A DNA stretch of 64,000 nt, from positions 15,083-79,082 of the IMG/VR virus record IMGVR_UViG_3300047369_000529; one strand, written 5' to 3'. The DNA comes from a virus. The notes beneath the pieces were generated by a model. The model worked only from the letters and a program-made list of their open reading frames with translations. It made no database searches and was not told the DNA's origin. The position numbers and the translations under genes were made by a program. This document shows, piece after piece, positions 15,741 to 52,854 of this stretch. Numbering within the stretch: position 1 is the stretch's first letter; every line of letters begins with the position of its first letter.

Positions 15741-17249
15741 TTGATTTTAACTCTAACGGAAGACAATCAGTTTCTTAGAATAGACGAAGCTGAGGAATTA
15801 GAATTAGAGCAGATTAAAATATCTTTAACTAAAAGAATTGATAGTTGGAGATTTAATCCTCTAGTTAAAAAAGGAATATGGGACGGATATGTTTCATATA
15901 TTAAAGACGATAAGTGGATTCCTGCTGGTCTTTGGAGATATGTTATGCTCATATGTAAGGAGTATAAGTTTGACCTAAAACTCAATGGAATTCAAAGACT
16001 TTTTGATAGAAACATAAATGCAGAATCCTTTGAAGAATGGGCTTTAGAATTTTTTAAGGGTAGTAAATTTACGCCAAGAGACTATCAGGTAGAAACATCA
16101 TTTAACATTCTTAAATTTAGAAGGTGCTTAGCTGAATTAGCGACTTCAGCCGGAAAAACACTTATTAGTTTTTTAACAGTCGCATACATGTTAGAAAAAG
16201 AAAAAGCAGAAAAGATATTATTTATAGTTCCTAATGTTTCTTTAGTCGTACAGGCTCACGAAGATTTTCATGAATACAATAATAAGAATAGAATAAAACT
16301 AAAAATACAACAGATATACGCAGGTCAAAAAATAAAGTCAGATCGAAATGTAGTAATAGGTACATATCAATCTCTAGTTAAAAAATCCAAAGAATACTTT
16401 CAACAATTCGATGCAGTTATTGTAGATGAAACACACAAAGCAAAGTCCAATTCTATTAAGACGATATTACAAAAATGTACTAACGCAAAATATAAGTATG
16501 GTTTATCAGGTACAATTCCTAAAGATGGATCTTTGGACAAGTTAACGTTAATGAGTCAGACAGGTCCAGTAATCAGCGAAGTAAAAGCAAACTTTTTACA
16601 AAGAGAAGGACATATTGCAAAATGCAAAGTAAAGGTTATTGAAATGGATTATGCTCCTGAAGCAAGCAAAAAGGCATTCGAAGAATTAGCATTTAACAAG
16701 TATGATAGAAAAGATGTTTTTCAATTAGAACAAAACTATATAATTAATTCTTTTGGTAGATTAAACTTTATATGTAGCGTTATAGGAAGAGTTCCTAAGA
16801 ATTCATTGGTGTTATTTCATAGAATTGAACACGGTAAAAAAATATACGAACATCTAAGGCAAAACACTGACAAAAGAGTCTATTATGTAGACGGTGGAAC
16901 AGATAAAGATATTAGAGAAGAATATAAAAAGAAAATGGAAGCAGGTGACGAGGTAGTTATCGTCGCGAGTTATGGTACTTTCTCAACGGGTATATCAATT
17001 AAGAAAATACATAACATTTTCTTTACAGAATCTTTTAAGTCCGAGGTAATCATCAGACAGTCTATAGGTAGAGGTCTAAGACAGCATGAATCAAAAGAGG
17101 CAGTATTAATAGTTGATTTTGTAGATGACATTAGAACTGACGAATGGGACAATTATCTATATAAACATAGCAAGGCTAGACAGAAAATATATAAACAAGA
17201 GAAATTTGAGTATAGTATTAAGAAAGTCAAATTTGAAGGAGATATATAG
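15741..17249 (+). CDS. uvsW: SF2 helicase UvsW-like
   Basis: WDG, PRDYQ, ATSAGKT, VDETH, GLSGT, STGISI, QSIGRGLR. Confidence 0.92.
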   Translation: MILTLTEDNQFLRIDEAEELELEQIKISLTKRIDSWRFNPLVKKGIWDGYVSYIKDDKWIPAGLWRYVMLICKEYKFDLKLNGIQRLFDRNINAESFEEWALEFFKGSKFTPRDYQVETSFNILKFRRCLAELATSAGKTLISFLTVAYMLEKEKAEKILFIVPNVSLVVQAHEDFHEYNNKNRIKLKIQQIYAGQKIKSDRNVVIGTYQSLVKKSKEYFQQFDAVIVDETHKAKSNSIKTILQKCTNAKYKYGLSGTIPKDGSLDKLTLMSQTGPVISEVKANFLQREGHIAKCKVKVIEMDYAPEASKKAFEELAFNKYDRKDVFQLEQNYIINSFGRLNFICSVIGRVPKNSLVLFHRIEHGKKIYEHLRQNTDKRVYYVDGGTDKDIREEYKKKMEAGDEVVIVASYGTFSTGISIKKIHNIFFTESFKSEVIIRQSIGRGLRQHESKEAVLIVDFVDDIRTDEWDNYLYKHSKARQKIYKQEKFEYSIKKVKFEGDI

Positions 17250-17281: not shown

Positions 17282-18859
17282 ATGGCAGAAATCAATAAAA
17301 TTTCTTCTTTTAAGTCTTTTACTGAGATCAGAAAACAAGAGAACGCTAATAAACTTAGAGAAGAAAATAATTTAAAAAGACAAGAGGCTGTTGGTAAAAT
17401 AGCCACTATATTAGATGAACTAGGACTAACTTCTTTTGAAGGTTTAGAAGAAGATCAAAAAGAAACAATCATCTCAAAAATATTTGGAGACGTTTCTGAA
17501 GAAGAACTTGCAGAAATTGAGGTTGAAGTTGAAAAAGAAGTTGAAGAAACGGAAGAGTCGGAAGAGCAAGTTTCAGAAGCCTTAGATATTAGATATAAGA
17601 GAGATGCTAAAAAGGTAGTAACTCAATTTAAAAAGATTTTTGCAGAGTTAGGAAGTCTAACAGCAGATAAAGTAACTTATTTAGGAGCTATTAAATATTT
17701 ATATAATGAAGCTCTAACTGATGCTAACTTTCATTCAGCGAGATCAGCTACTGAAAAAATTATTAAAGGTAGATTAAACAGTATTTCAGTTTCTCCTGAA
17801 TCTTTAGGAAAACATGCAATTATCGTTGGTGCAAAAAACATTATGAAAATTCTAGATGAATATTATTCTAGAATTTCAAATGCAGCGGGATGGTCAGGTC
17901 CTGGAATTGCTGAAGGAACAGCAATGTATTTAGAATCTATTGGTGAAGGTTCAACCGCTGAAAAATTATTAGTAGGTTTTAATGCAGCTAATGAGAGCGT
18001 TGAATACCAATTATCAGAAGAAGAAATATCATTAAAGGAGTCTAACCTTATTTTTGAAGCAACCGTTACAATGGACGCTATGAATCCTAAAGATAAAGAT
18101 TTCTTAAAATTCTTAAAGAAGAATAGCGTTAAAATTATCGATATGGTAAAATCAGGACCAACTGGTCACCCTGAAATTACTATGCAGGGTAAAAGAGAGG
18201 ATTTAGAAGCGGTATTAGCAGATGGAGAATTAGGATGGGATGATGCAGGTTTAGCAGACTATATTGAAGAGTCAGCTACAATCGTTCTTAATGAAGGAAC
18301 TAGAGGCCAATTTGGTAAAATAGACAGAAAGGGAAATATTACTTCAGTTTATACTCACTACGATTCTTACCCAGAAAATATGTTACCTATTATTAAATCA
18401 ACATTTAAAAGCGGTAAGAATGTAGATTTCGTTCTTAAGAATGGAGACAATTCAGGTCTAGATAAAGACATTAAGAAAATTAATTTCTACGGCGGAGATT
18501 CTAATTTAATGACAGGTAATATTAAGAGCATTAATGATTATATTAAAAACGCAAATTACGAAGCTGGTGCAGAATTCGTTTATTTATGGGATGAAAAATC
18601 TAAAAAATGGATGATGGCAGACATTTATGCAGAAACTGGATTAGTTCCAGCATTTGAATCTGTAGTTAACGAATCAGAAGCTGAAAATATCTTACAAGAT
18701 CTTTTAGACGAAAGAGGAGGAGACATGGGAGAATTACATGGCATGGAAATGGAAGATGCTTTAGATACAGTTGAATCTTATGGACATAAAGGTTCTAAAG
18801 CAAAAAAGATTGCACAAGAATTAGTTTCACTATGTAACGAATCCGTGGCTACTAACTAA
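17282..18859 (+). CDS. Putative internal-head polyprotein 1 (leader plus about 4 modules)
   Basis: KISSFKSFTE leader; modules bounded by VSE^A, IFE^A, LNE^G, ESVVNE^S; late promoter at 17241. Confidence 0.6.
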   Translation: MAEINKISSFKSFTEIRKQENANKLREENNLKRQEAVGKIATILDELGLTSFEGLEEDQKETIISKIFGDVSEEELAEIEVEVEKEVEETEESEEQVSEALDIRYKRDAKKVVTQFKKIFAELGSLTADKVTYLGAIKYLYNEALTDANFHSARSATEKIIKGRLNSISVSPESLGKHAIIVGAKNIMKILDEYYSRISNAAGWSGPGIAEGTAMYLESIGEGSTAEKLLVGFNAANESVEYQLSEEEISLKESNLIFEATVTMDAMNPKDKDFLKFLKKNSVKIIDMVKSGPTGHPEITMQGKREDLEAVLADGELGWDDAGLADYIEESATIVLNEGTRGQFGKIDRKGNITSVYTHYDSYPENMLPIIKSTFKSGKNVDFVLKNGDNSGLDKDIKKINFYGGDSNLMTGNIKSINDYIKNANYEAGAEFVYLWDEKSKKWMMADIYAETGLVPAFESVVNESEAENILQDLLDERGGDMGELHGMEMEDALDTVESYGHKGSKAKKIAQELVSLCNESVATN

Positions 18860-18871
18860 ACATACAATAAC

Positions 18872-19075
18872 ATGAAAAAATTAATTGAATTTATTAAAAA
18901 GGCATTTAATGCAGTTAAGACCTGGGTTGTTGCAAACGGAGTTGAAGGTGTTTTAGGCCTTATCGCTGGACTTGCCCTATGGGCGTTTGGCTATAAAATC
19001 TATGCTGGATTTGCATTTGGCGTATTTGCAACTCGTAACTGGGACCTATTTAAATCCTGGGTAAAAGGATTATAA
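18872..19075 (+). CDS. Small membrane protein
   Basis: 67 aa with hydrophobic Gly-rich segments. Confidence 0.6.
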   Translation: MKKLIEFIKKAFNAVKTWVVANGVEGVLGLIAGLALWAFGYKIYAGFAFGVFATRNWDLFKSWVKGL

Positions 19076-19139
19076 ATTAAAAAAAAAATTGGCTTATAAT
19101 TTTTCTAGGTCGATTTTTTTAATTATATTAGTAATATAA

Positions 19140-20513
19140 ATGAAACTAGATAACAACTTCGTAGACTTTATTCAGCATCATGCAGATATGCAAGGTATGA
19201 CTAGAGAAGAATATGTTGCTCATTTCTTATCAGAAAGATACGATAATAAAATTTTAACATTTGACGAATTTATCGTTGAGAAGTTTTCTAATCTACAAGA
19301 AGCTTTAATCTTAGAAGGCGGTGCTGCAGGGCATATGTCACATCCATTTGATGAGAAAGATTTAACGTTTGCAGATTTTAAAACAATAGTAAAATCAGGT
19401 CTTCAAGGAGAATTAAACTTTGAAGAAGTTGCAACAGAAAAAACAGACGGCCAAAATTTATTTGCCACCGTAAGAAACGGAGTTACTCTATTTTCTAGAA
19501 ATAAAGGCCAATTAATTAGCCCAGTCGATTTAGACGGGATTATAAAAATGTTTGAAGAGCATGAAGTTCCTTTAGTAAGAGAAACATATGTGTTTGCTGC
19601 TAAAGACCTAAATGAAGCTCTTCCAAAGATGAAGGATCAGTCTATATTTAATGAAGGTAAGAACTTTATTAATATGGAATTAATTTACTCTAAGAATCCT
19701 AATGTTATTTATTATGAAAGAGATGTTTTACAATTCCACGATATTAAGGAAACTGATGGAAATGGAAATATTATTGGAGAGCAAAAAATAGCAGGAGAGC
19801 TTGTTTCCGCATTAAAAGAAGTTGATGCTGATGTTCAAAAAACATTTACAATAATTCCCCCTCAAATATTAAAATTAGGAAAAGATATTGATTTTGAAAA
19901 AAATCATGCTAAATTTATAAAACAAATTGAAGCACTAAGAGATCGTTATAATCTAACAGATAGTGACGAGGTTTCTAGGTATCATGAAATGTGGTGGAGA
20001 GAAACTATCGATGAAAATTTCCCTAATCTACAACAAGACTATAAAGAAGGTTTATTATTAAGATGGGCCTATGGAGATAAGAAAACTCTTAACATGAGAA
20101 GTCTTGCAAAGGAAATAGGAAAAGATGAAGCAGCGGCGGTTAAGAAATTCGACAAAGAAGATGTTAAAAAGAAATATAAAGAAAACATTAGACCTTTCGA
20201 AGATTTATTTTTAGAATTAGGGTCTATAATTCTTAAAAATGCGTCCAATTTTGTAGCAGCTAATCCTGACAAAGAAATGCAAAGATTGCATAATCAGATT
20301 AGAACAGAGGCTGATAAAATTAAGAAAGGCGGAAGCGTTGCTCAGATCGAAAAGGTAATGAAAGAATTAGAGAGATTAGATAGAATTGGTGGAGTAGAAT
20401 CTATTATACCAACCGAAGGGATAGTTTTCGTATATAAAGGAAAAACTATGAAATTAACGGGTACATTTGCCGCTATTAATCAATTAATGGGCGTTATAAA
20501 GTACGGAAGATAA
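19140..20513 (+). CDS. ATP-dependent ligase-fold covalent nucleotidyltransferase (RNA-ligase-like)
   Basis: Motif I EKTDGQN, SRN, MELIY, LQFH, motif IV EGIVF, motif V KLTG; leader ILTFDEFIVE...LILE^GGAAGHM. Confidence 0.6.
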   Translation: MKLDNNFVDFIQHHADMQGMTREEYVAHFLSERYDNKILTFDEFIVEKFSNLQEALILEGGAAGHMSHPFDEKDLTFADFKTIVKSGLQGELNFEEVATEKTDGQNLFATVRNGVTLFSRNKGQLISPVDLDGIIKMFEEHEVPLVRETYVFAAKDLNEALPKMKDQSIFNEGKNFINMELIYSKNPNVIYYERDVLQFHDIKETDGNGNIIGEQKIAGELVSALKEVDADVQKTFTIIPPQILKLGKDIDFEKNHAKFIKQIEALRDRYNLTDSDEVSRYHEMWWRETIDENFPNLQQDYKEGLLLRWAYGDKKTLNMRSLAKEIGKDEAAAVKKFDKEDVKKKYKENIRPFEDLFLELGSIILKNASNFVAANPDKEMQRLHNQIRTEADKIKKGGSVAQIEKVMKELERLDRIGGVESIIPTEGIVFVYKGKTMKLTGTFAAINQLMGVIKYGR

Positions 20514-20523
20514 ATAATAAGAT

Positions 20524-22398
20524 ATGGCACTTAAAAAAATAAGACAAGTATTTCAAGAAACTAACATTAATGCATTTCAGGATCTTCTGAAAAATAGAAT
20601 TTTAGTTACTGAAAAAATACAAGGTTCATCTTTTCACGTAAGAAGAAACGTAGAAAGGTTTGAATATTTTAAATCTGGAGATATTCGTATGAATATGATA
20701 GATAGAACTATCGTAGGACTATACGAAACAGGGGTTAAACATATTCAAAGTTTAGATCCTTCAATTAAAGAAGAAATGCCAACGGATTGGAAATTTGGAT
20801 TTGAATATCTTCCTGAATTAGAAATATCACAATACAAATATACTAAACTTCCTAAGAATAATTTAATATTAACACATATACAAACGTTATCTGAGTCAGG
20901 TAAAGTTAAAAAAACTATTTATGACCCTTCTGTTTTAAACAAATGGGCAAAAAAATTAGAAGTTCAAGGACCTAGCATAGTATTTGATGGAACTTTAAAT
21001 CAAAATCAAAAAACAGAATTAATAAATCTTTTATCTATGTCAGATAAAGAATTTGTAGAGTCGTTTGACTATGATAGATCTACGGATTTTAAAACTTCAT
21101 TTACACAGAAAATAATAAAGATTTTTAATCCAAATCAAACTTCACCAATATTGAATGAAGATTTTGAGGTTGAGATTGATGGTCTAATAATTTCATTTAT
21201 AGACGGAAAGAAAGTAAAATCTTTTAAATTAGAAGACTTTACTAGAAACAACGAGAGCAACTCTAAGGAATCTAGTCACATGTATCAGATTACTATAGCT
21301 GATCTAATCGAATATCTTTCTTCATTTGACATGAACTCTGTTCAACTAAACGAAGAAACAGCAGATCTTAGGTACATTGAATTAATGTCCGTTATATTTA
21401 ATAAATATGTAAATGAAAATTCTACTAAATTTATAGGAGTTAACTTTGAATCAGCCGACTTTGCAAGCCATAGCGTATTTAAACTAAATAGTAAATACAT
21501 TAAAAACGAAACCACACTTTCTTTAGTGGAAAACGAAATACTTTCAGAATTATTTAAAATAACGCTCGGATCTTTTAGAAAAAAGAGAAATAAAGAAAGC
21601 GATATTCTAAATAAAGAAATGATAGAGCATTTAAATAATATAGTAGAAGAAATAGATAAAAAGATATTCGTTGAAAACACCGACGAAAATTCAATATATG
21701 ACTTTAACAATTTTATATTACATAACAAAGTAAAGACTAGTGTTAATTTAAATGAAGCGCTTAAGGTAGATCATCCTGAACAAGGAGGAGAATTAGTAAA
21801 TATGTTTGTTGGTAGATTCCAACCATTTACACTTGGACATGCTAAAGTATTAGAAACTATACACAAAGAAAATGGATATCCTGTTGTAGTATTATTAGTC
21901 AAAGCAAAGAATAAGAAAAAAGAAGACGCTTTTAAAAGACCTTATGATGAAAAAACGCAACTTAAGATGTTTAAGGCGGTTCAAAAACAATATCCATTCC
22001 TAAAAGAAATTTTTGTAATTCCAACAGGAGGTATTGATACTATGTTCAATGCAATGAGACCTAAATATGAACCTGTATTATGGGGAACAGGAAGTGATAG
22101 AATGAAAACTTACGGATTCCAAGTAAATAAAGATTCTTATAGAGAAGATCTTGGAGTTAGAAGCGACTTTAGATTATTTGAAATTCCAAGAACAGATGAT
22201 AATATTTCAGCGACTCAGGTTAGAAACGCAATGCTAGACGGAGATGAAGGATTATTTAAGTCAACAACACCCAAAGCATTACATAAAATGTATGGCGAAC
22301 TTAAGAAAAAATTAGAAGATTCAGTAGGTACTTCAGAATCAAATGAAGTTGCTGAATCATTATTAACATTTAAACAATTTTTAGAAAACAATGGATAG
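20524..22398 (+). CDS. Fusion of variant ligase-fold domain and HIGH-superfamily nucleotidyltransferase (cytidylyltransferase/NMNAT-like)
   Basis: N-terminal EKIQGSSF...DGLII...FKL; linker VNLNE^A; GRFQPFTLGH, GSDR, ISATQVR; C-terminal LLTFKQFLE. Confidence 0.7.
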   Translation: MALKKIRQVFQETNINAFQDLLKNRILVTEKIQGSSFHVRRNVERFEYFKSGDIRMNMIDRTIVGLYETGVKHIQSLDPSIKEEMPTDWKFGFEYLPELEISQYKYTKLPKNNLILTHIQTLSESGKVKKTIYDPSVLNKWAKKLEVQGPSIVFDGTLNQNQKTELINLLSMSDKEFVESFDYDRSTDFKTSFTQKIIKIFNPNQTSPILNEDFEVEIDGLIISFIDGKKVKSFKLEDFTRNNESNSKESSHMYQITIADLIEYLSSFDMNSVQLNEETADLRYIELMSVIFNKYVNENSTKFIGVNFESADFASHSVFKLNSKYIKNETTLSLVENEILSELFKITLGSFRKKRNKESDILNKEMIEHLNNIVEEIDKKIFVENTDENSIYDFNNFILHNKVKTSVNLNEALKVDHPEQGGELVNMFVGRFQPFTLGHAKVLETIHKENGYPVVVLLVKAKNKKKEDAFKRPYDEKTQLKMFKAVQKQYPFLKEIFVIPTGGIDTMFNAMRPKYEPVLWGTGSDRMKTYGFQVNKDSYREDLGVRSDFRLFEIPRTDDNISATQVRNAMLDGDEGLFKSTTPKALHKMYGELKKKLEDSVGTSESNEVAESLLTFKQFLENNG

Positions 22399-23470
22399 GT
22401 ACGATTTTGAAAGAGCACTACATAGTGCTGCAAAAACCAATGCTGAAAATGAAGCGTTAATTATAGAATCCTATATTGGAGTTGCAACGACCGGAAGTAA
22501 ATCTGCCCAACAGAATTTATTTAATTCAATTAATAGAACATTTAAAAAGAATAAGTGTCCATGGCAAGGTGTTAAGTTTACTTCAACACAGGATGTTAAA
22601 CAACAACCTGATGGTAGGTTATGGCTTTCTAAAATGGATGACGATACATTCGGAGTAGTTTTTCAATATTTAATGTTAAATAAAAGCGAAGCAAACGAAT
22701 TGTTTAATATTGGAAGAGACGATAATGGAATTGGTGCTGGAGAAATAATGCTAGCGTATATTGTAGAAAATATAAAAATAGGTGGAGGTGCGGCCGATAC
22801 TGACTTAGAATTATATAATGAAAGGTGGTCACCAATTAAACCACCCCTTGGTAAATGTGAGTTAAAAGAAGCTCAAATGTCAAAGGGCATGTTACAAAAT
22901 TGGAGAACAGGTGCAAAACACCAGGGAATTAATAGTACTTATGTACCGAAGTTAACGGCATTATATGACGCAGTAAAATATAATATTGAAGAAATCAACC
23001 CGGACGGAGATGGTAAAGATATGGCTGCCGGTGGAGGTTGGATAAATGAATGGGGAACTGTAGGTGGAAAAAGATTTAAGCATATTCAAAATTTAACTAA
23101 GACAGATATTCAGGCCCTTTCTTCTAGTGAAAGAGATTTTAAAATAGGTCCTGGAGATAAAGATAACGGCGCATTAGTAATTAAATTTAATGACGTAGAA
23201 TTAGGAAAGCTAAGTGACTCTAAAACTGCAGAAAAAATTAAAAGTATAATAGAGACTGAGCCTTCCGTTAGAACATTTACTGAAATACAAGACGATGTAA
23301 TTTCAGCAGTAGGAGATATACCTACTCCATTCCTTTTTATAGAGTCTAAAGATCATGAAATAGTAGCTTTTCACTATTACAAGAAATTACCTGGAAAAAC
23401 TAGCGAATTACAAATATATTCTATTACACAAGGTAAATTTAAATATAAAATAAAGCCTAACCGAGTTTAA
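22391..23470 (+). CDS. Putative PD-(D/E)xK nuclease-fold protein
   Basis: GAGEIML...GGGAADTDL...CELKEA pattern; leader ending LIIE^S. Confidence 0.4.
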   Translation: MDRYDFERALHSAAKTNAENEALIIESYIGVATTGSKSAQQNLFNSINRTFKKNKCPWQGVKFTSTQDVKQQPDGRLWLSKMDDDTFGVVFQYLMLNKSEANELFNIGRDDNGIGAGEIMLAYIVENIKIGGGAADTDLELYNERWSPIKPPLGKCELKEAQMSKGMLQNWRTGAKHQGINSTYVPKLTALYDAVKYNIEEINPDGDGKDMAAGGGWINEWGTVGGKRFKHIQNLTKTDIQALSSSERDFKIGPGDKDNGALVIKFNDVELGKLSDSKTAEKIKSIIETEPSVRTFTEIQDDVISAVGDIPTPFLFIESKDHEIVAFHYYKKLPGKTSELQIYSITQGKFKYKIKPNRV

Positions 23471-23490
23471 ATAAACAAATACAAATAAAA

Positions 23491-26118
23491 ATGAGCACTA
23501 AAAAAACATTTGAAAGCTTTGTAAATTCAATGAATGAAAACGTTGATTTATATAAAGTATATAAAAGAGTTTCTGGAAAATACTCTTTAAGAAAACCTTC
23601 TTATTGGGGAGATCTATTTAATCAAAGAGCTTCTATCCCGTTAAAAGAATTAAGTAAATATTCTTCTGAATTAGATTCATTAGAAGTCTATACTACTAAA
23701 GAATTAGGATGTCATCCAGATTATCCTATGCAATCAAATTTTAAGGTTCAAGTTCCTCAAGTATTCGTACTATATTGTAATACTGAAAGGGGCGAATTAG
23801 GAGAGTATTATGGAATGTCAATTCTTGTAAATACTGAAGGTGCAACATATCCAAGATATGCATGTGGTATGCCAGATTTCGAACCAGAACTTCATAACTT
23901 TGCAAATGGAATTCCTGAAAGCTATTTAAATATTGTAACAACAGGTGCTCAAATGTTACATGAAAAAATGATAGCTGAAGGTCAATTCTCATGGATGACA
24001 CAAGATACTGGAGATCAGATTGGTTCAGAACCTCAAAATAAAATAGACGTTTACATGTACGACAACCAGGGTAATTCTTGGAAAGAAAGAGACTATGAAG
24101 GCTATGGAGAATTTGGCGGTATGGATTACTATGACTTAGTTGCAACTATGAACGGATATACTGAAGAAGACGTTAAAACAATGAAAGGTTCATTTAAAGA
24201 ATTAAGACAACTTGGTATCGATTTAGCGTTTGGTAAAATAAAAACTAAAGATAAAAAGCGCAAAACTCTTTTTCCAGCTTTAGTCACAGATCCTAGGTAT
24301 AATTGGAAAAGACATGATTTTACTCAAGAAGCAGAATCAGATCCAAACCAATCATGGTATCAAGAGCCTGAGTATGACGATTATGAAGATGAATATGATG
24401 ATTTCTACAATGAAAAAGAAATCAAGGGTAAAGCTGCCGGCAACTCTATAAAGATGGCACCAGCAGGTAGAACTATTGAAATCAATGGTATCACTTACAC
24501 ATGCCTTGGTAAAGGTAAGTGGGAAGGACCTGATGGCGAAAAAGTAAATTGGATTGAAGTTTCTGCTATGGCATCAGCATTAGGAAACAAGAAAGTTGTA
24601 TATGAATATGATGGCTATGAGTCAGTAGTTACTGAAGCTAAAGGAGATTTAAAAGTAGGAGATAAGGGTATAGATTATAATGATAATGTTGTAAAAATAA
24701 TTGCTATTGGTAATTTTAAGAAAATTGCTAAAATGTTTAAGAAAGAAATGAAAGCAGACGCAGCTGATTGGGGCTACGAAGAAGGAGCTGGAGATTTCTA
24801 TCTTGCTAAAAACATAGAAGCGACTGAAGGTAATGTTGGAGATTTAGCAATTTATCCAGTAAAATACGACATGGCTAACTACTGGGGTTTAGATAAACTA
24901 GATGAATCATCAGTTACTGAAAACTATGAAGTTATTTATAGCGACGGCGTAAGTGCTATGAAAAAGTTTAGAAGCGAGAAACAAGCACTAGACTTTATGA
25001 AGAAAACTATCTCTTCTAATAAAAAACTAAGAGATATTGCAGTTTACAAACCAGGAATGTATTCAACTACTCAAACTGAACTAGTTGTTAAATTCTGGGG
25101 AGATGGTTCTTATTTAGATAACGTTTCTAAAAAAGATAAAGATTTAGCTTCTAAAAAACTAGAAGAATCTACCTTAAATGAAGCTCGTTCTATTAACAAG
25201 ATTTCAAAGGAGTTTGGAGAAACGGTTAATAAAATGAAAGATATAGTTAAAGTATATGTTGCTGCTGAAGAAGGAAGTGATGAAAAATCAAAATTAAGAC
25301 AACAATTAATTGATTTAACAGCAAAGAAAAAGTCTTTAACTAAAGAATTAGACGACGCCGTAGCTGGAAAAAACAAAGATGTAAAATTAGTTATAACAGA
25401 AGGTGTAATGTCAAATATTCATTTGATGGCATCCGATTCTAAAAACTGGGATGATTTCTTAAAAAAGTTTAAGAAAGATTATAAGAAAGTATTTCAAAAT
25501 ACACCTGACTTTATGGATTGGTTATATGGCATGTATAAGGATATGGCTCCTTTAAAAGCAGGCGAAAAAGTAGAAGAAAAATATAACAAGAAAAAGTTAT
25601 TAAAAGCAATTAAGAATAAAGACGACATGTTTATTCAGTTAGGAGATGGTACTGAACTAATAGTTTATAACCCGGATTCTAATAATGACGACAATGCAGA
25701 AATGTGGCACGATGATGTGGTATTTGCGATCGATCAAGACGGAGAAGAACATGAGGTTAAATACTCAGATATTGCAGGTATTGGTGAATCTGTAGTTTCT
25801 GAATCTAAAATTCAAATAAAAAGAAAGTATACAGACAAGCATCCAGCAAAAACAGCTGGAAGATCTGCAAGGGTTAGAAACGCAATGATAGAAGCTCTTT
25901 CGGATGGAATATTAACAGAAGAAGAATTCAATAATATTTTAAAAGAAAAATCTATTGACAGTAAAAGATGGATGAGAAGAAATTCTAGATTTTTTATGGT
26001 AAGTGAAGAAGGAATCAAGCTTTCTAAATATGGAAAAAGAATTTTTAAAGAAATTACGAATAAGCAAGTAGTTAACTTAACTCTAGAATCTTTTATAAAG
26101 GATATATACAATAAATAA
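23491..26118 (+). CDS. Putative internal-head polyprotein 2 (about 9 modules)
   Basis: MSTKKTFESFVNSMNE leader; linkers IAE^G, FYNE^K, ESVVTE^A, ESSVTE^N, ESTLNE^A, ITE^G, VEE^K, ESVVSE^S; C-terminal LTLESFI. Confidence 0.65.
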   Translation: MSTKKTFESFVNSMNENVDLYKVYKRVSGKYSLRKPSYWGDLFNQRASIPLKELSKYSSELDSLEVYTTKELGCHPDYPMQSNFKVQVPQVFVLYCNTERGELGEYYGMSILVNTEGATYPRYACGMPDFEPELHNFANGIPESYLNIVTTGAQMLHEKMIAEGQFSWMTQDTGDQIGSEPQNKIDVYMYDNQGNSWKERDYEGYGEFGGMDYYDLVATMNGYTEEDVKTMKGSFKELRQLGIDLAFGKIKTKDKKRKTLFPALVTDPRYNWKRHDFTQEAESDPNQSWYQEPEYDDYEDEYDDFYNEKEIKGKAAGNSIKMAPAGRTIEINGITYTCLGKGKWEGPDGEKVNWIEVSAMASALGNKKVVYEYDGYESVVTEAKGDLKVGDKGIDYNDNVVKIIAIGNFKKIAKMFKKEMKADAADWGYEEGAGDFYLAKNIEATEGNVGDLAIYPVKYDMANYWGLDKLDESSVTENYEVIYSDGVSAMKKFRSEKQALDFMKKTISSNKKLRDIAVYKPGMYSTTQTELVVKFWGDGSYLDNVSKKDKDLASKKLEESTLNEARSINKISKEFGETVNKMKDIVKVYVAAEEGSDEKSKLRQQLIDLTAKKKSLTKELDDAVAGKNKDVKLVITEGVMSNIHLMASDSKNWDDFLKKFKKDYKKVFQNTPDFMDWLYGMYKDMAPLKAGEKVEEKYNKKKLLKAIKNKDDMFIQLGDGTELIVYNPDSNNDDNAEMWHDDVVFAIDQDGEEHEVKYSDIAGIGESVVSESKIQIKRKYTDKHPAKTAGRSARVRNAMIEALSDGILTEEEFNNILKEKSIDSKRWMRRNSRFFMVSEEGIKLSKYGKRIFKEITNKQVVNLTLESFIKDIYNK

Positions 26119-26130
26119 AAACTATAGAAA

Positions 26131-27960
26131 ATGAAACTATATACTAACTTCGATAATTTTATCAATGAAGCAAAGGTTATGAAGCAGAAAGATACTGCTA
26201 AAATAGCACAAAAATTAGCATCGGCTCTTTCAAAGGCAGATGGCAAAGAATTTACAATTTCTAAAGATTCATTAGATGCTGGAGGATGGGATCTAGATAT
26301 GGATGGAGAAGAATTCGCAGGTGGAACTTATTTTATTGGAGATGCTGGAGAAATAGTAAACGCAGCAACAAGTAATGACGTATATGGTCACATGGACGAC
26401 AGTGAAGCTGAATTAGTTAAAAAGATTAAAAAGGGTAAATTTGCAAAATACAGAGCAACTGAATCAGTAGTTAACGAAGCATCTCTTTCGGGTGTAGAAT
26501 TTGGAAACGATGACGACATTCACCCAACTAAATTTAAACCTTTAACTACATCTTTAAAGAAGAATAAAGTTAAAATGGAAGTTGAAAAAGAAGAAGGTTA
26601 CCATGGCTACCCAGAAGTTAAATTAACGGGTAAAAGAAAGGACATCGAAAAGGTTTTAGCTGATGTATGGGGACCAGACTCAATCTCTGACTATGAAGAT
26701 TATTTTGAATCCAAAGTTAATGAAGCTAGATTTAAAAAAGGACAATACATTAAAGCCACTGCCGATAGCGATGATTTTGATGGAGATGTTTACGATGTAA
26801 CTAACGACGTAGATGGTAGTACGATTTACAAAGATTCATCATTCGAAATTTATGGAATTAATAGAAATGAAGTTATTCTTTGGAGTGACGAGGATGAAGT
26901 AGAATACTCAATAGATCCGGATGATCTTAAACATTTTGTTAAAGAATCATTAGATATTGAACTTAATGAAGCTCTTAAGTCTTCTAAACTAAGAAACTTA
27001 ATAGACATAAGACAGGGTGGTAAGCAACTAATGCAGGGTATATATGGTCTTGCTAAAGTAGCATTAGATAAAGTAACCGACGACATGGTTATCACTAATT
27101 CAAATCCAGTTGAAGTTTATAAGAAAGCAAAAACATACGGAAATGTATTAGTATTTTGGATTTCTAGAAACGAAAAGGAAAATCCTTACACACCTAGAAA
27201 TAGTTATGGTGGAAAAGATATTATTCCAGGAAATACCTTATTAGCAGTCTCAAATGGTAAAAACGAAATGTTTGACAATCATGCTGCATATACTAGAGAG
27301 TATGTGGATGGAAAACAAAGAAGTAAAACTACAAGATCTTTAAAGAATAGAGGAAGATACCCTGGTTCTAAAGACACTGTTGGGGTAGATAAATCTCATA
27401 GTACATGGAGTGGAACAGGCTTAGGAAATATTAAAAGAATCGCAGAGGTTTCAGACGAATGTTACATTATTAATTTAGACGCTGTTAGAGATAGACTTTC
27501 TACAAGTAATAAAGTATCGCAAAGATTTTCTCAAAAAGCCGATGCTACCGCTTTTGATAATCCAAAAGATATTAAACAAGCAAACATCACTAAATATCAA
27601 TCAATTTTAGCACAAAGAGCAGATAATCCAGATAAAATAGACAAACAAGTTAAAGAAATTATTGAAGATGCTCATCAATTCTTAATGGCCGGTTTAGCTA
27701 AAAAAGAAATGGGAGACTATAATGAATTATCAATAGGAAAAGATCCTAAAGGAAGAGATATTAAACCTAGAGATTTAACCAATTATATTTCAAATATATT
27801 GTCAGATTATCAAGGATATGTTTCGGCATACGTTAATGCAAAAACTGAAGAAGAAAAATATGGAACTTCAAGCGATTGGTATAAAAGAGATGCTAAACGT
27901 AAAGCTCTAGAGCTTAAGCAGCGAATGGCTAAATGGGATAACAAGAACATAGTTTGGTAA
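26131..27960 (+). CDS. Putative internal-head polyprotein 3 (4 modules)
   Basis: MKLYTNFDNFINE^A leader; ESVVNE^A, ESKVNE^A, ELNE^A linkers; late promoter at 26101. Confidence 0.65.
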   Translation: MKLYTNFDNFINEAKVMKQKDTAKIAQKLASALSKADGKEFTISKDSLDAGGWDLDMDGEEFAGGTYFIGDAGEIVNAATSNDVYGHMDDSEAELVKKIKKGKFAKYRATESVVNEASLSGVEFGNDDDIHPTKFKPLTTSLKKNKVKMEVEKEEGYHGYPEVKLTGKRKDIEKVLADVWGPDSISDYEDYFESKVNEARFKKGQYIKATADSDDFDGDVYDVTNDVDGSTIYKDSSFEIYGINRNEVILWSDEDEVEYSIDPDDLKHFVKESLDIELNEALKSSKLRNLIDIRQGGKQLMQGIYGLAKVALDKVTDDMVITNSNPVEVYKKAKTYGNVLVFWISRNEKENPYTPRNSYGGKDIIPGNTLLAVSNGKNEMFDNHAAYTREYVDGKQRSKTTRSLKNRGRYPGSKDTVGVDKSHSTWSGTGLGNIKRIAEVSDECYIINLDAVRDRLSTSNKVSQRFSQKADATAFDNPKDIKQANITKYQSILAQRADNPDKIDKQVKEIIEDAHQFLMAGLAKKEMGDYNELSIGKDPKGRDIKPRDLTNYISNILSDYQGYVSAYVNAKTEEEKYGTSSDWYKRDAKRKALELKQRMAKWDNKNIVW

Positions 27961-27977
27961 AATAAGACTTAAAAATT

Positions 27978-28700
27978 ATGAATAATAAAATAGAAGAAAA
28001 ATTTAAGTGGGAAACTACTGGCGACAAGGATGATAGAGAGTTCTTAACAGGTTTAGTTCAAAGAACTAAATTAATTTACGGAGATATTAAACCTGCTAAA
28101 TACGATCTTAACGACTTTGATAAAGACTTAGATAAATTATTAAAGAAATTTGTAAAAGATTCTGATTCTTTTTTTAAGGCAAAGGACGATAGAGACTATG
28201 GAGCTAGTAATAAAATACATGCAGATTGGATGAAAGCTGCTCAAAAAGCATTTAAACATGTTACTACAAATACTGCATGGAGAGGTCAATTAAATACATT
28301 CACTAGAAATTTATCAACTATTTGGCAAGTTCACATGGAAGCAGAGGCTGGAAGAACAGGAAACAGAGGCTATAAAGTTCATAAGAGACAAGCCTTTCAA
28401 AAACAGTTTGAACAAGTAAAATTGTATGAACAGTTTATTAACGAAAGATTTAACGCTAGAAAAGTAAAGAAAGAACTAGAAGGTTTTGGCTTTAAGAACG
28501 TTGATGCTAGTGGAAACGAAATTTCAGTTGAAACGGGCTCTTATGAAAATCCATTTGGTTCAGAACAGAGTTACACTTTCTTTTGGAATGGTGAAACAGT
28601 CTGGTGTGAATCAGAAGAAGCTGAAACAGAATGGATGGGAGAAGTAACTACTGCAGAACAATTTGCAGAAACTATGGAAACAGCAGAAGGCTGGTCATAA
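27978..28700 (+). CDS. Two-module putative internal protein
   Basis: Internal QVKLYEQFINE, matching the N-terminus of the next ORF. Confidence 0.55.
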   Translation: MNNKIEEKFKWETTGDKDDREFLTGLVQRTKLIYGDIKPAKYDLNDFDKDLDKLLKKFVKDSDSFFKAKDDRDYGASNKIHADWMKAAQKAFKHVTTNTAWRGQLNTFTRNLSTIWQVHMEAEAGRTGNRGYKVHKRQAFQKQFEQVKLYEQFINERFNARKVKKELEGFGFKNVDASGNEISVETGSYENPFGSEQSYTFFWNGETVWCESEEAETEWMGEVTTAEQFAETMETAEGWS

Positions 28701-28716
28701 TTAAAAAACAAGAACT

Positions 28717-29034
28717 ATGAAACAAGTAAAACTATATGAGCAATTTATAAATGAATCAGCAATTGATACTTTAGCTACTGAAATTGATGATGCTAAAGTT
28801 TATGATGCTGTTTCGGATGGAGGTTCTGTTGACGCAAGATCTACTAAAAAAACATGGGACGATGGTGTTCCAGTTTTAAAGTATATTGCTAGAGCTCCAA
28901 AAAAATCTGTTAAATTACCTAAGAAATTTAAAGTAGTAGACGACACTAAATATGGATGGTGGTATTTACAAGTATCAGGAGTATGGTATGGAATCGAACA
29001 AGATGATTATGGAACTCCACCATTTGAATATTAA
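28717..29034 (+). CDS. Putative internal head protein (single module)
   Basis: MKQVKLYEQFINE^S resembles the T4 capsid-targeting sequence MKTYQEFIAE. Confidence 0.65.
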   Translation: MKQVKLYEQFINESAIDTLATEIDDAKVYDAVSDGGSVDARSTKKTWDDGVPVLKYIARAPKKSVKLPKKFKVVDDTKYGWWYLQVSGVWYGIEQDDYGTPPFEY

Positions 29035-29037
29035 GAT

Positions 29038-31044
29038 ATGGAATTAAACGAAAACGAAAACTTATCACTTGGCGATATGGCCGGAATGGGAGAAGTCTCT
29101 TTACCATCTGAAACATCAGTTGGATCAGGGGATATTCCAGCCGGAAAAGGAGATGCCGAAGAAGAGTATAAGAAGAAGAGAAATAAAAAGAAACAACGCG
29201 AAATGAAAAACATTATATCATTTGAATCTTTCGGATCACTTGATGAAGGTAAAACAATATCTTCTTCTAAAATATCTATGATGGGTGCAAGAGTTCTTAA
29301 TAAAATTAGCATCGGTACCATATTTGATACAGAAGATGGAAACTATGAAATTACGGATTATGGCCGACAGGCAAATGCATTTAAAGAATTTGAAGCAGAA
29401 CATAATGGTAAAAAAGTAAAGGTAAAATTAACTGCAATGTATGGTGTTAAGTTAGAAGTAACTGACGATGTACGCAGCGCTAGATTTAATAAAGAAGTAA
29501 AGCTAAATTCTATTATTTTAGAATCGGTTAATGAAGGTAAGTTTGACGGTATTGCAGATTTAGTAAAATCTTTACATTTCGAAATGGATCCTAAAACCGC
29601 AGAAGAAAAGAAAATCGAACTAGGTAAAAGACAAGGTGAAGTTTCAAGAAGAAAGCAAATTGAAGGTGGTGAATATTCACTAAGAAGATTTAGAAAAGAG
29701 ATTAAATACGATGAGACCGGAGAAGATCTTGGTGTATTTAAACCCGGTAGCTATATGGCTGCTACTTCTATATTAGGCGATGGTCCACATAAGAAAGCCG
29801 TTAAGAAAGTAAGATGGAATAGAAAGAAATACGATCAATGGATTGAAGATATGGCAGCTAACGATGGTTGGAAGAATGCATTCGATATGGCACAAAATGC
29901 TAAACACGAACCAGGTCTATTACAATGGGCTAAGAAAGAATTTAGAGGTGAAGACGTAATGCAAAGAATTCAATGGGATATTGAAGGTTACGCAGAATCA
30001 GTAGTTACTGAATCTATTAGTAAATCTACTAAAATACATTGTATCGCAACACCAGCTCCTAAGTCAATGCTTAAGGATGAGTTAGAAGAATTATTCGGAG
30101 ATGATTATAGAAATATAGTTACAGAAGTTCAAGACGATGAAGGTTATGAATCAGTGTTAGTATTTAATCTTACTAAAAGAGACATTAAATTAATAGAAGA
30201 TAATATTGGAGATGTATTAATCTGGGAATATTCAATTAAACCAGGTAAATTAATTAATGAATCAGTAGTTAACGAAGCTGAAAAGTATATCACTGATAAA
30301 TTTAAAGTAGGTGATAAAATTAAAACTAATTTTGGTGAATGGGAAGTAATTGAAACTGATTATGCACCTAAAAAGAGTTTTATAGCACCTTTTATATTTA
30401 AAGGAAAGAATATAGAAAGAGTAAACATACCTAATCCACCTAAAACTAACAAGAATGCGGTAGGTTACAAAGTAACAGACGGTGCTAAATATCCAACTAT
30501 TGGTTTCTTATATCAATATAAAGATATTACTAAACTTGCAACAGTTGGCGTTGATGAATCAATAGTTACTGAAGCTGAAAGTGTAAAGGTAGGAGAATAT
30601 ATTAAAACTCAATACGGTTATTTCTATAAAAGAGTCGACGGTAAAGTTGGAGGACAAGAAGCTTTCGTTGAAATAAAGAAAGGAAAAGAAGGAAAGAGAA
30701 AAACAAGTATTCATGATACAGTTAGCTTTGAAATAGTTGATAAAGATGCTGCATTCGAATCATTGGTTACCGAAAAGAAACACGATAGAGAAGATACTAT
30801 AAAATTCATAAAGAAATACATGAGATTCGTAAAAACCACTGAAGAATTTAATGGTTCTCAGGGTGGTATATGGGTTTCAGGTGAAGATGGAGATGAATAT
30901 AAAGGAGTAACAATCTATGATTACTATACGTCTGGTAAATCATATGAATTAGGTGTAAATATAAAGTGGGAAAAAGAGTTAAATGAAAGAGGATGGTACA
31001 GCGAATGGTATGATGCAGGAACTGTAATGATCTGGGAAATATAA
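29038..31044 (+). CDS. Putative internal-head polyprotein 4 (leader plus about 6 modules)
   Basis: Internal MKNIISFESFGSLDE^G; linkers ESVNE^G, ESVVTE^S, ESVVNE^A, ESIVTE^A, ESLVTE^K. Confidence 0.65.
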   Translation: MELNENENLSLGDMAGMGEVSLPSETSVGSGDIPAGKGDAEEEYKKKRNKKKQREMKNIISFESFGSLDEGKTISSSKISMMGARVLNKISIGTIFDTEDGNYEITDYGRQANAFKEFEAEHNGKKVKVKLTAMYGVKLEVTDDVRSARFNKEVKLNSIILESVNEGKFDGIADLVKSLHFEMDPKTAEEKKIELGKRQGEVSRRKQIEGGEYSLRRFRKEIKYDETGEDLGVFKPGSYMAATSILGDGPHKKAVKKVRWNRKKYDQWIEDMAANDGWKNAFDMAQNAKHEPGLLQWAKKEFRGEDVMQRIQWDIEGYAESVVTESISKSTKIHCIATPAPKSMLKDELEELFGDDYRNIVTEVQDDEGYESVLVFNLTKRDIKLIEDNIGDVLIWEYSIKPGKLINESVVNEAEKYITDKFKVGDKIKTNFGEWEVIETDYAPKKSFIAPFIFKGKNIERVNIPNPPKTNKNAVGYKVTDGAKYPTIGFLYQYKDITKLATVGVDESIVTEAESVKVGEYIKTQYGYFYKRVDGKVGGQEAFVEIKKGKEGKRKTSIHDTVSFEIVDKDAAFESLVTEKKHDREDTIKFIKKYMRFVKTTEEFNGSQGGIWVSGEDGDEYKGVTIYDYYTSGKSYELGVNIKWEKELNERGWYSEWYDAGTVMIWEI

Positions 31045-52101: not shown

Positions 52102-52854
52102 ATGGCAAACATATTAGCTCCTTTCGTAAAAAATGAAGAATCTCTTCAATTCTATTTAAACGGTAGAACTTACGAAATAAAAGAAAATAACGTTGAAATT
52201 ATTGAAAATCCTAAGAATTCAAATTTACTATCTGCTATTTCTGCATTTGAAAGTTTCGAGTTTTTAAATGAAACTATAAGATGGTATCACGGATCTACTA
52301 AATTTATTTACAATATCGAAGAAGGTAAATTTTACAACAACAACACTGAGATCTTAGAATCTTTTTCTAACTTTGCATTAAATAGCGGTTTAGTTAGATA
52401 CGAAAATAAAAATAAAGCTGAGTTATTTGAAAGTCTTTCTTCTATTATAGAAAACTTTATGGTAGTAGATTTTGCTACTACATACAAGAGAGGAGGTGTC
52501 ACTGTTGATTTATTTAAATTAGATGAAAATCTATTTATTTCAAGATACAACGAAGACACCAAATTATCTAAATTTTTCTCAGCATCTGCGAATGAAGCAG
52601 TAGAATACATTAAAGCTGAAACATCTGAAGATGCATCTCCAGTCGTAATCGAAATGCTAGAAGGAGAATTAGCAGAAGAGGCAAAAAAATCTAAAGAGAT
52701 TTCTAAATATGAAGATATGATTTCTTTCTTAAAAGACCAAAGAGGTTTATTAGCTGAGGCTGATAAATCAATTGAAGAAATTAAAGAAGCTGATTCTTTA
52801 ATTAATTCTGAAATTAAATCTTGGGAAGAAAAGATTGAAGCATTAAAAGCATAA
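52102..52854 (+). CDS. Hypothetical late protein
   Basis: 250 aa with C-terminal coiled coil; late promoter at 52062. Confidence 0.55.
   Translation: MANILAPFVKNEESLQFYLNGRTYEIKENNVEIIENPKNSNLLSAISAFESFEFLNETIRWYHGSTKFIYNIEEGKFYNNNTEILESFSNFALNSGLVRYENKNKAELFESLSSIIENFMVVDFATTYKRGGVTVDLFKLDENLFISRYNEDTKLSKFFSASANEAVEYIKAETSEDASPVVIEMLEGELAEEAKKSKEISKYEDMISFLKDQRGLLAEADKSIEEIKEADSLINSEIKSWEEKIEALKA

What the first reader, a model, noticed from the sequence alone, without database searches (positions are those of the whole stretch)
17282..31044. Candidate new system: virion-packaged, protease-processed polyprotein effector arrays
Seen: four long ORFs (525, 875, 609, 668 aa) and two short ones consist of small, mostly unrelated modules (typically 55-160 aa) separated by recurring ES(V/I/K/L)V(N/T/S)E^(A/S/G) linkers, about 25 modules in total. 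Each ORF has a capsid-targeting-like motif, and late promoters lie at 17241 and 26101. Known: T4 gp21 cleaves after Glu in (L/I)-x-E contexts during head maturation, and T4 injects processed internal proteins such as IPI*, which inhibits GmrSD restriction of glucosylated DNA. A gp21 homologue is in this window. Inference: the phage concatenates many small early-acting or anti-defence proteins into polyproteins, packages them with one tag and releases them by head maturation, giving a pre-made injected arsenal.
Basis: partly seen in the sequence, partly recalled or inferred. Interest (0 to 1): 0.92.

Follow-up and report, generated by a model that had tools for sequence, protein, structure and literature searches.

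The report
Phage head-cargo polyproteins with protease linkers
An uncultured marine relative of phage T4 strings about two dozen small, mostly unrelated protein modules into four long proteins, joined at sites that fit its own head-maturation protease, so the chains are probably loaded into the capsid and cut into separate small proteins, though no cutting, packaging or injection has been measured.

Summary
Four long ORFs (525, 875, 609 and 668 aa) and two short ones are chains of about 24 pieces. They are joined by ES-V-V-(N/T)-E|(A/S/G/K) linkers, which occur nowhere else in the window.

Relatives show that the pieces are real units. Hundreds of mosaic homologues reshuffle them, always at the linkers. 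A syntenic 176-kb relative differs by whole modules and has swapped modules between arrays. One module also exists as many free-standing ~95-aa genes carrying a T4-like N-terminal tag (MKKVNLFEQFLNE|A) in place of the linker.

Across divergent contexts only P3 (I/L/V) and P1 (Glu) stay fixed, which is the rule seen at T4's own gp21 sites. The window encodes a gp21-like protease with the His and Ser motifs conserved. The same site is enriched in its head proteins. Two arrays share an upstream GATATATA motif with tail-fibre and protease genes.

Cleavage and packaging are inferred, not shown. The "anti-defence arsenal" idea has no support: no module has a recognisable function, and most are acidic, unlike T4's basic internal proteins.

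I found no published description. This scan has reached similar conclusions before on other uncultured T4-like phage genomes.

The parts
17282..18859 (+). Array A (525 aa): acidic leader plus four pieces. Predicted cuts after aa 99 (QVSE|A), 259 (LIFE|A), 338 (VLNE|G) and 464 (ESVVNE|S). The C-terminus NESVATN* looks like a decayed linker.
   Evidence: 426 representative clusters match it; 74% of alignment starts and 52% of ends fall within 8 aa of these cuts, against about 15% by chance. The orthologue in the relative is 708 aa with different inserted modules.
23491..26118 (+). Array B (875 aa): conserved 382-aa N-terminal part, then five pieces. Cuts after aa 382 (ESVVTE|A), 477 (SSVTE|N), 564 (ESTLNE|A), 637 (VITE|G) and 771 (ESVVSE|S). 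The C-terminus LESFIKDIYNK* is a decayed linker.
   Evidence: The orthologue in L027 is 1072 aa. It keeps B1, B4, B5 and B6, carries different cargo between the linkers, and reads LESFINE|ANY... where the window ends.
26131..27960 (+). Array C (609 aa): 13-aa T4-like tag MKLYTNFDNFINE|A, then pieces C1-C4. Cuts after aa 13, 116 (ESVVNE|A), 198 (ESKVNE|A) and 280 (IELNE|A).
   Evidence: The L027 orthologue (444 aa) lacks C2 and C3 exactly between linkers. Its joint is a hybrid of the two window linkers, crossing in the shared GAA-TC codons.
27978..28700 (+). ORF E (240 aa): two pieces joined by an internal copy of the tag, QVKLYEQFINE|R (aa 145-156). The gene is absent from the syntenic relative.
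   Evidence: The internal tag differs from the N-terminal tag of ORF F only at synonymous sites over the shared residues.
28717..29034 (+). ORF F (105 aa): free-standing 'tag + one module' gene, MKQVKLYEQFINE|S plus a 92-aa module.
   Evidence: The module is 48% identical (E = 3e-23) to the last module of the 1139-aa array P0042, where an internal linker precedes it.
29038..31044 (+). Array D (668 aa): 166-aa leader, conserved module D2 (aa 167-325), variable D3 (326-408), D4 (414-512), D5 (513-579), and D6 (580-668), whose family is always C-terminal. Cuts: ESVNE|G, ESVVTE|S, LINE|SVVNE|A, ESIVTE|A, ESLVTE|K.
   Evidence: More than 650 mosaic homologues. D3 exists as many free-standing ~95-aa tagged genes.
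17241..17248 (+). GATATATA promoter-like motif 41 nt upstream of array A
   Evidence: One of 9 copies, all on the coding strand, 8 of them 30-42 nt before a start codon.
26101..26108 (+). GATATATA promoter-like motif 30 nt upstream of array C
   Evidence: Conserved 32 nt upstream of the orthologue in L027.
57552..59591 (+). Prohead protease (gp21-like domain, about aa 1-165) fused to a coiled-coil, acidic, scaffold-like region. Candidate sites: RVNE|S (aa 167), FISE|A, FLTE|G, KLSE|A, TVNE|A. GATATATA lies 30 nt upstream.
   Evidence: phrog_207, E = 3.9e-40. 5JBL, E = 0.002. 25% identity to T4 gp21, E = 6e-11, with LGELDHP and ISSRAAG aligned to T4 LGELNHP and VSSRGLG. Sites.
59813..59821 (+). 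Candidate propeptide cleavage site in the gp23-like major capsid protein (gene 59744-61114): ...ESATGINE|AE, cut after Glu26.
   Evidence: Retained as GINE|S and GITE|K in relatives of 71% and about 55-64% identity, but lost in LR756500.1, which keeps another site, LINE|AE. T4 gp23 reads FLTE|AE at its known site.
61237..62613 (+). Head-region ORF (458 aa) with a T4-like start MKTFEQWYKAFTE|S and further sites; GATATATA lies 42 nt upstream.
52102..52854 (+). Head-region ORF (250 aa) with an internal tag-like AFESFEFLNE and the highest density of [VIL]xE[ASG] sites in the window (20 per 1000 aa); GATATATA lies 40 nt upstream.

Best explanation
The four long ORFs and two short ones are precursors of capsid-internal proteins. 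They are built as concatenated cassettes.

Proposed mechanism:
1. They are made together with virion proteins.
2. They enter the prohead core through T4-type targeting leaders. The key hydrophobic positions of those leaders are repeated in every internal linker.
3. The phage's gp21-like prohead protease cuts them after the Glu of each hydrophobic-x-Glu linker.
4. This releases some two dozen small folded proteins (mostly 7-18 kDa), which stay in the head and leave with the DNA.

The linkers also act as the joints at which cassettes are gained, lost and moved between arrays.

Shown here: the modular anatomy, its mobility, the identity of tag and linker, the match to the site rule seen at T4's own sites, the presence of the protease, and the shared upstream motif.

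Inferred: packaging, cleavage and ejection. What the released proteins do is unknown.
For: (1) Linker specificity. All 10 strict hits are in the arrays. There are 255 hits in 120 homologues against 3.7 in shuffled sequences.

(2) Pieces are units. Families cut at the linkers have narrow length ranges (87-88, 99-103, 43-45 aa) and many different neighbours. Alignment ends coincide with the cuts: 74% of starts and 52% of ends, against about 15% by chance.

(3) Syntenic relative L027/G001. Whole modules are present or absent between linkers, and one joint is a hybrid linker. A3 and B2 sit in the other array in the relative.

(4) Tag equals linker. The same module follows IILESVNE|G in the window and MDIKKTFNDFVNE|G in P0008 and P0017. 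D3 occurs as many free-standing genes starting MKKVNLFEQFLNE|A, with the residue after Glu aligned to the first residue after the array linker. ORF F matches the last module of P0042.

(5) Site rule. Upstream of modules A3 and A4 in divergent proteins, P1 is Glu in 37/38 and 47/47 contexts and P3 is I/L/V in 35/38 and 47/47, while P2 varies freely. T4's own substrates, read from AF158101, are FIAE|A, TITE|A, FLTE|A and LLRE|S. Reviews state that cleavage is C-terminal to Glu and that residues 4 and 7 of the targeting sequence serve targeting while 8 and 10 serve processing (PMC9026906, PMC5694885).

(6) The protease has the His and Ser motifs conserved.

(7) The core site is enriched in head proteins as well: 4.93 against 1.03 per 1000 aa, p = 2.5e-4. 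The capsid protein has a site near its N-terminus that varies N/T and A/S/K as the linkers do.

(8) The GATATATA motif is shared with tail-fibre and protease genes.

(9) In the fold of the free-standing module, the tag (residues 1-16) is the only stretch with pLDDT under 50 and the module is a compact domain.

(10) Piece sizes match T4's internal proteins, whose genes encode 95, 100 and 193 aa. T4's ip genes also lie away from its head genes.
Against: - No proteomic or biochemical evidence of packaging or cleavage exists for this phage or any relative. No deposited phage genome carries these modules, so there is no cultured model.
- The arrays lie among replication and nucleotide-metabolism genes, not in the head cluster.
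- Arrays B and D have no GATATATA motif of their own.
- The 668-aa fold was poor (mean pLDDT 50.5) and drew low-confidence helices through two linkers.
- The capsid-protein site is not the same in all relatives.
- Hydrophobic-x-Glu is short and also occurs 15 times in the window's other proteins.
- Most pieces are acidic, unlike T4's basic internal proteins.
- A canonical N-terminal tag is missing from arrays A, B and D.
Confidence: 0.65

Rival explanations
1. The arrays are packaged and cut by the prohead protease, but the pieces are core or scaffold filler. They help build or size the large head and are then degraded or expelled, like T4 gp22, gp67 and gp68. They are not proteins delivered to the host.
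For: T4 core proteins are cut at many sites and mostly leave the head (PMC9026906). SPN3US propeptides are cut into several fragments (PMC10052503). Many pieces are strongly acidic, as scaffold regions are. No effector-like domain was found.
Against: The pieces are conserved folded-domain-sized units under purifying selection. They turn over and shuffle rapidly between close relatives and also exist as free-standing tagged genes. That pattern matches the variable T-even internal proteins and not scaffolds. Fragments of 7-18 kDa are the size of T4 proteins that stay in the head.
Confidence: 0.15
2. The proteins are not cleaved. They are beads-on-a-string multidomain proteins, and the conserved linker serves another purpose, such as a recombination joint for domain shuffling or a structural or binding spacer.
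For: The hybrid joint in L027 shows recombination inside linkers. Several linkers share 16-17 of 18 nucleotides. AF2 drew helices through two linkers, at low confidence.
Against: Codons vary at synonymous sites, so selection acts on the peptide. In divergent contexts only P3 and P1 are fixed, which is the protease rule and not a DNA or spacer signature. The linker is interchangeable with an N-terminal leader of the T4 targeting type, which in T4 is removed by cleavage. The same site is enriched in head proteins.
Confidence: 0.12
3. The arrays are true polyproteins, but they are cut in the cytoplasm by another protease (host or phage). This would be an economical way to express many small proteins, unrelated to the capsid.
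For: The arrays sit outside the head-gene cluster, next to replication genes. No packaging evidence exists.
Against: No other protease was found in the 79-kb contig (the genome is incomplete). The site matches the gp21 rule, and the leaders match the T4 capsid-targeting sequence. Arrays A and C share an upstream motif with virion genes.
Confidence: 0.08

Closest known systems
Phage T4 internal proteins IPI, IPII, IPIII and Alt: capsid-targeting sequence plus gp21 processing (Mullaney and Black 1996; reviewed in PMC9026906 and PMC3012670)
   Same: Short N-terminal leader with hydrophobic residues at matching positions, ending in hydrophobic-x-Glu followed by a small residue. T4 has MKTYQEFIAE|A; here MKQVKLYEQFINE|S. 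Both have a gp21-family protease, small cargo proteins that vary strongly between related phages, and genes that lie away from the head cluster.
   Different: In T4 each protein is a separate gene with one leader. Here up to six or more unrelated modules are concatenated in one ORF, with the leader motif repeated as an internal linker, and modules move between arrays. There is no sequence homology to the T4 proteins. Most pieces are acidic, not basic. Nothing has been shown experimentally.
Processed ejection and inner-body proteins of giant phages phiKZ, 201phi2-1 and SPN3US (PMC10052503, PMC5694885)
   Same: A gp21-related protease cuts many head-internal proteins after Glu at a short motif, and some precursors are cut at several sites.
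   Different: There the motif is S/A-x-E or A-x-E. [quoted passage not shown] Here P3 is aliphatic, and every piece between sites is a conserved, independently mobile module.
Polyvalent proteins of phages and conjugative elements (Iyer et al. 2017, PMC5512222)
   Same: Many unrelated domains fused in one polypeptide, predicted to be delivered with the DNA. Processing into separate products has been proposed.
   Different: Polyvalent proteins are defined by recognisable conflict domains and often have an embedded peptidase (MPTase) for self-processing. Here no such domain was found, and the cuts would be made in trans by the head protease at a conserved linker.
Polyproteins of positive-strand RNA viruses, cut by 3C-like or related proteases at conserved inter-domain sites
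   Same: One ORF and many mature products, separated by a short conserved protease site (some cut after Glu).
   Different: Analogy only: unrelated proteases, replication proteins instead of capsid cargo, and no cassette shuffling at the sites.
Mobile promoter/stem-loop cassettes (PeSLs) that mediate gene shuffling in T4-type phages (PMC2839356, PMC4122927)
   Same: Short conserved sequences flank variable units and act as recombination joints in hyperplastic regions.
   Different: PeSLs are non-coding regulatory DNA between genes. Here the joint is a coding peptide motif inside an ORF, conserved at the protein level.

Membership tests
T4-type internal head proteins (capsid-targeting sequence, gp21-processed) | N-terminal leader of 10-19 residues with hydrophobic residues at positions about 4 and 7, ending in (L/I/V)-x-E before a small residue | tested here: met
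   Canonical on ORFs C and F, and internally in E. Compared with T4 ipI, ipII and ipIII read from AF158101. Weaker or displaced in A, B and D.
T4-type internal head proteins (capsid-targeting sequence, gp21-processed) | Phage encodes a gp21-family prohead protease with catalytic His and Ser | tested here: met
   phrog_207, E = 3.9e-40. 5JBL match. The alignment to T4 gp21 keeps the HP and SSR motifs.
T4-type internal head proteins (capsid-targeting sequence, gp21-processed) | Incorporated into the prohead core and found in mature heads | not testable with these tools
   No virion proteome and no cultured relative.
T4-type internal head proteins (capsid-targeting sequence, gp21-processed) | Cleaved after Glu by the prohead protease in vivo | not testable with these tools
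   Only the sequence rule could be tested. P1 is Glu in 84 of 85 contexts and P3 is I/L/V in 82 of 85.
T4-type internal head proteins (capsid-targeting sequence, gp21-processed) | Homology of the mature part to IPI, IPII, IPIII or Alt | tested here: not met
   No Pfam or PHROG assignment. No tblastn match to any of 50,697 phage records, T4 included.
T4-type internal head proteins (capsid-targeting sequence, gp21-processed) | Small basic proteins | tested here: not met
   The size fits (most are 60-160 aa), but 16 of 24 pieces are acidic.
Polyvalent proteins (Iyer et al. 2017) | Contains recognisable conflict or effector domains (ART, ParB-like, MPTase, anti-restriction and so on) | tested here: not met
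   Pfam on the window's arrays and on 60 family members: only 4 isolated, uninformative hits.
Polyvalent proteins (Iyer et al. 2017) | Embedded peptidase domain for self-processing | tested here: not met
   No peptidase family in any array.
phiKZ/SPN3US-type processed ejection proteins | Cleavage motif S/A-x-E or A-x-E | tested here: not met
   P3 is I/L/V, not Ala or Ser.
phiKZ/SPN3US-type processed ejection proteins | Long N-terminal propeptide removed, leaving one mature C-terminal product | tested here: not met
   Every piece between sites is a conserved module that also occurs elsewhere or alone.

The most novel reading that the evidence does not exclude
This is a plug-in cargo system for a dsDNA phage. 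Any small protein flanked by the hydrophobic-x-Glu linker is loaded into the capsid as part of a polyprotein, freed by the head protease and delivered with the DNA. The same linker serves three roles: targeting element, cleavage site and recombination joint. Cargo cassettes can therefore be swapped between arrays and between phages without new promoters or tags. The result would be a fast-evolving injected repertoire in an abundant, uncultured lineage of marine T4-like jumbo phages.
Probability: 0.45. Interest if true: 0.85.

Novelty: new variant of a known kind. Interest (0 to 1): 0.75.

Why it matters
Tailed phages are not known to use polyproteins, and T4's internal proteins are single genes with one tag each. 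If the arrays are cut as predicted, this lineage loads dozens of different small proteins per head from a few genes and exchanges them as cassettes.

That would show how phages diversify what they inject, open a large pool of small proteins of unknown function to study, and offer a natural design for loading several proteins into a T4-type capsid.

The family is abundant in marine metagenomes: more than 650 homologues for one array and 426 representative clusters for another. It has no cultured representative.

Tried and rejected
- **T4 late promoter.** TATAAATA is absent at 17241 and 26101, and its count in the window is at chance. It was replaced by the GATATATA finding.
- **DNA-repeat origin of the linkers.** Rejected as the main cause because codons vary at synonymous sites. 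Recombination within linkers does occur.
- **First breakpoint test.** Raw BLAST ends against a narrow regex were noisy (34% and 15% against 8.6%). Piece clustering and anchored tests replaced it.
- **Function of modules.** All of these were uninformative: Pfam and PHROGs on the window's ORFs and on 60 relatives; ESM Atlas; Foldseek against PDB and BFVD for two models. D3 has a generic ferredoxin-like fold.
- **AF2 of the whole 668-aa array.** Too poor to judge the linkers.
- **Deposited phages.** No homologue of arrays A, B or D. The nearest deposited relative, LR756500.1, has 1 linker-pattern hit in 462 kb.
- **Tools.** Sequencing-run tools were not used, because environmental reads cannot show cleavage or timing.

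Full report
**What is there.** The window is part of a 79-kb contig of an uncultured T4-like myovirus. It encodes a portal, a gp21-like protease, a gp23-like capsid protein, gp2, gp4, UvsX, gp41, gp46/47, a split DNA polymerase and an alpha-glucosyltransferase. The nearest deposited relatives are huge metagenomic phages: the LR756500.1 capsid protein is 51% identical and the Lak phages 38%. Related viral contigs of 176-182 kb are rated only 58-65% complete, so the lineage probably has genomes near 300 kb.

**The linker is real and specific.** [ED]S[VIKLT][VL][NTS]E occurs 10 times in all six-frame ORFs of the window, and every hit is in the four long ORFs. The shorter core [VIL][NTS]E[ASGK] occurs 5.96 times per 1000 aa in the arrays, 4.93 in the head-region proteins and 1.03 elsewhere (p = 1.2e-6 and 2.5e-4). 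Linker codons differ at synonymous positions and the flanks are unrelated, so the peptide is what is conserved. Cutting at the linkers gives about 24 pieces. Only A3~C2 and weakly B3~D2 are paralogous.

**The pieces are independent, mobile units.**
- The 668-aa array has more than 650 homologues of 380-1139 aa, each sharing only parts of it.
- In the 120 best homologues the linker occurs 255 times, against 3.7 in shuffled sequences. The next residue is A, K, S or G in 96% of cases.
- Pieces cut at the linkers form families with very narrow length ranges and many different neighbours. One family is always C-terminal (78/78) and one always N-terminal (74/74).
- Array A has 426 representative clusters. 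74% of alignment starts and 52% of ends fall within 8 residues of the predicted cuts, against about 15% by chance.
- The syntenic relative L027/G001 is the clearest case. Its array C lacks C2 and C3 exactly between linkers, and the joint is a hybrid of the two window linkers crossing in the shared GAA-TC codons.
- Its array B keeps the end modules but carries different cargo, and continues past a linker where the window's gene ends in a decayed linker.
- Window module A3 sits in the relative's array B, and window B2 sits in its array A.
- Shared modules show 76 synonymous-only against 74 amino-acid-changing codon differences in 323 codons, so these are real coding sequences under purifying selection.

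**N-terminal tags and internal linkers are the same element.**
- Module D2 follows IILESVNE|G in the window but MDIKKTFNDFVNE|G at the N-terminus of P0008 and P0017.
- ORF F (tag plus one module) is homologous to the last module of the array P0042 (48% identity, E = 3e-23).
- Module D3 exists as many free-standing ~95-aa proteins beginning MKKVNLFEQFLNE|ASYGG. In the alignment, the first residue after the tag's Glu falls in the same column as the first residue after the array linker.
- From 187 unique contexts the linker reads: hydrophobic (P8), E (P6), S (P5), V (P4), V (P3), T/N (P2), E (P1), then A/K/S/G. The tags are the same with Phe at P4.

**The link to the head protease.**
- T4's own leaders, read from AF158101, are MKTYQEFIAE|A (IPII, IPIII) and MKTFKEFTSTTTPVSTITE|A (IPI). 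T4 gp23 reads FLTE|AE at Glu65 and gp24 reads LLRE|S.
- Reviews state that T4-type proteases cut C-terminal to Glu. They also state that in the 10-residue targeting sequence residues 4 and 7 serve targeting while 8 and 10 serve processing (PMC9026906, PMC5694885).
- Upstream of modules A3 and A4 in divergent proteins, the sequence varies freely except for P1 (Glu in 37/38 and 47/47) and P3 (I/L/V in 35/38 and 47/47).
- ORF 57552-59591 has a gp21-like N-terminal domain (phrog_207; 5JBL; 25% identity to T4 gp21, E = 6e-11). LGELDHP and ISSRAAG align with T4 LGELNHP and VSSRGLG, and RVNE|SF aligns with T4 IVNE|GF. The domain is fused to a scaffold-like region carrying four more sites.
- The capsid protein carries GINE|AE after residue 26, retained as GINE|S and GITE|K in relatives. 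LR756500.1 has lost that site and keeps LINE|AE at residue 7 instead, so this point is suggestive only.

**Regulation.** TATAAATA is not upstream of the arrays and is not enriched. GATATATA occurs 9 times, always on the coding strand. Eight copies lie 30-42 nt before a start codon, a zone covering 1.8% of the window. The ninth lies 11 nt before a small ORF. The genes served include a tail-fibre gene, the protease, two head-region ORFs and arrays A and C. The copy before array C is conserved in L027. That these genes are 'late' is inferred from this company. Arrays B and D have no copy of their own.

**Structure.** The whole 668-aa array folded poorly (mean pLDDT 50.5). The linkers lie in or beside low-confidence stretches, and two were drawn as low-confidence helices, so the result is inconclusive. 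The free-standing D3 protein gave pLDDT 71 and pTM 0.61: a compact alpha/beta domain, with the 16-residue tag region the only stretch under pLDDT 50.

**Function.** Nothing informative came from Pfam or PHROGs on the window's ORFs or on 60 relatives, from the Atlas or from fold searches. Sixteen of 24 pieces are acidic. The anti-defence reading therefore rests only on analogy with T4 IPI and on the fast cassette turnover.

**Distribution and novelty.** No deposited phage genome has these modules, and LR756500.1 lacks the linker system. Five literature searches found no description of prohead-protease-linked cassette polyproteins. The nearest concepts are the T4 internal proteins, the giant-phage ejection proteins, polyvalent proteins and PeSL-mediated shuffling. 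The scan's notebook shows that follow-up agents reached similar conclusions on several other uncultured T4-like phage genomes. I did not test those.

**Verdict.** The anatomy and its evolutionary behaviour are solid. Cleavage by the head protease and capsid loading are the best explanation (about 0.65) but remain unmeasured. The role of the released proteins is unknown.

Noticed in passing
window 19140-20513 and 20524-22398: Two ligase-like ORFs (KxDG-type motifs EKTDGQN and EKIQGSS) lie between arrays A and B. The second is fused to a cytidylyltransferase/NMNAT-like domain. The first has a leader (MKLDNNFVDFIQHH...REEYVAHFLSE...FDEFIVE|K) that resembles the leader on P0164, a free-standing D3-family protein. 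The second ends in a tag-like LTFKQFLENNG. They may also be capsid cargo.
   Followed up: partly
window 4902, 11590, 12727, 17241, 26101, 49761, 52062, 57522, 61195: GATATATA followed by an A-rich stretch, always on the coding strand and 30-42 nt upstream of start codons of virion-type genes. It is a candidate late promoter that differs from the T4 TATAAATA consensus.
   Followed up: yes
window 57552-59591: The prohead protease is fused to a long coiled-coil, acidic, scaffold-like region (679 aa in all). The candidate release site RVNE|SF aligns with IVNE|GF of T4 gp21.
   Followed up: partly
window 36868-38265 and 42174-43370: The T4-type DNA polymerase is split into two ORFs separated by ribonucleotide reductase genes and one unknown ORF.
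   Followed up: no
window 35153-36376: An alpha-glucosyltransferase homologue (phrog_2888, E = 8e-66) suggests glucosylated modified DNA. In T4, that is the setting in which internal protein IPI acts.
   Followed up: no
window 29038-29535 and homologues P0051, P0081, P0095: The array D family has a conserved leader with a GMG..V.LPS...VGSGD.P motif, an acidic and then a basic run, and in many relatives an added N-terminal DUF3008 domain. Its last module is always C-terminal. These look like fixed carrier ends around variable cargo.
   Followed up: partly
window 18851-18859 and 26080-26118: Arrays A and B end in decayed linkers (NESVATN*, LESFIKDIYNK*). These look like traces of modules lost from the C-terminus. 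The relative L027 still has an intact linker and a further module at the second position.
   Followed up: yes
window 11621-11989, 52102-52854, 61237-62613: Further ORFs have T4-like tag starts or internal tags (MKTFFEYL..., AFESFEFLNE, MKTFEQWYKAFTE|S), each preceded by GATATATA. They are likely additional head-internal proteins.
   Followed up: partly
L059/L060 (G002:C1, about 20000-21900): The capsid protein of a more distant relative is 642 aa against 456 aa here, with a large insertion. The next gene starts MAKLKTYSEFLNE|G, very close to the T4 tag.
   Followed up: no
window 18872-19075: A small 67-aa predicted membrane protein sits directly after array A.
   Followed up: no
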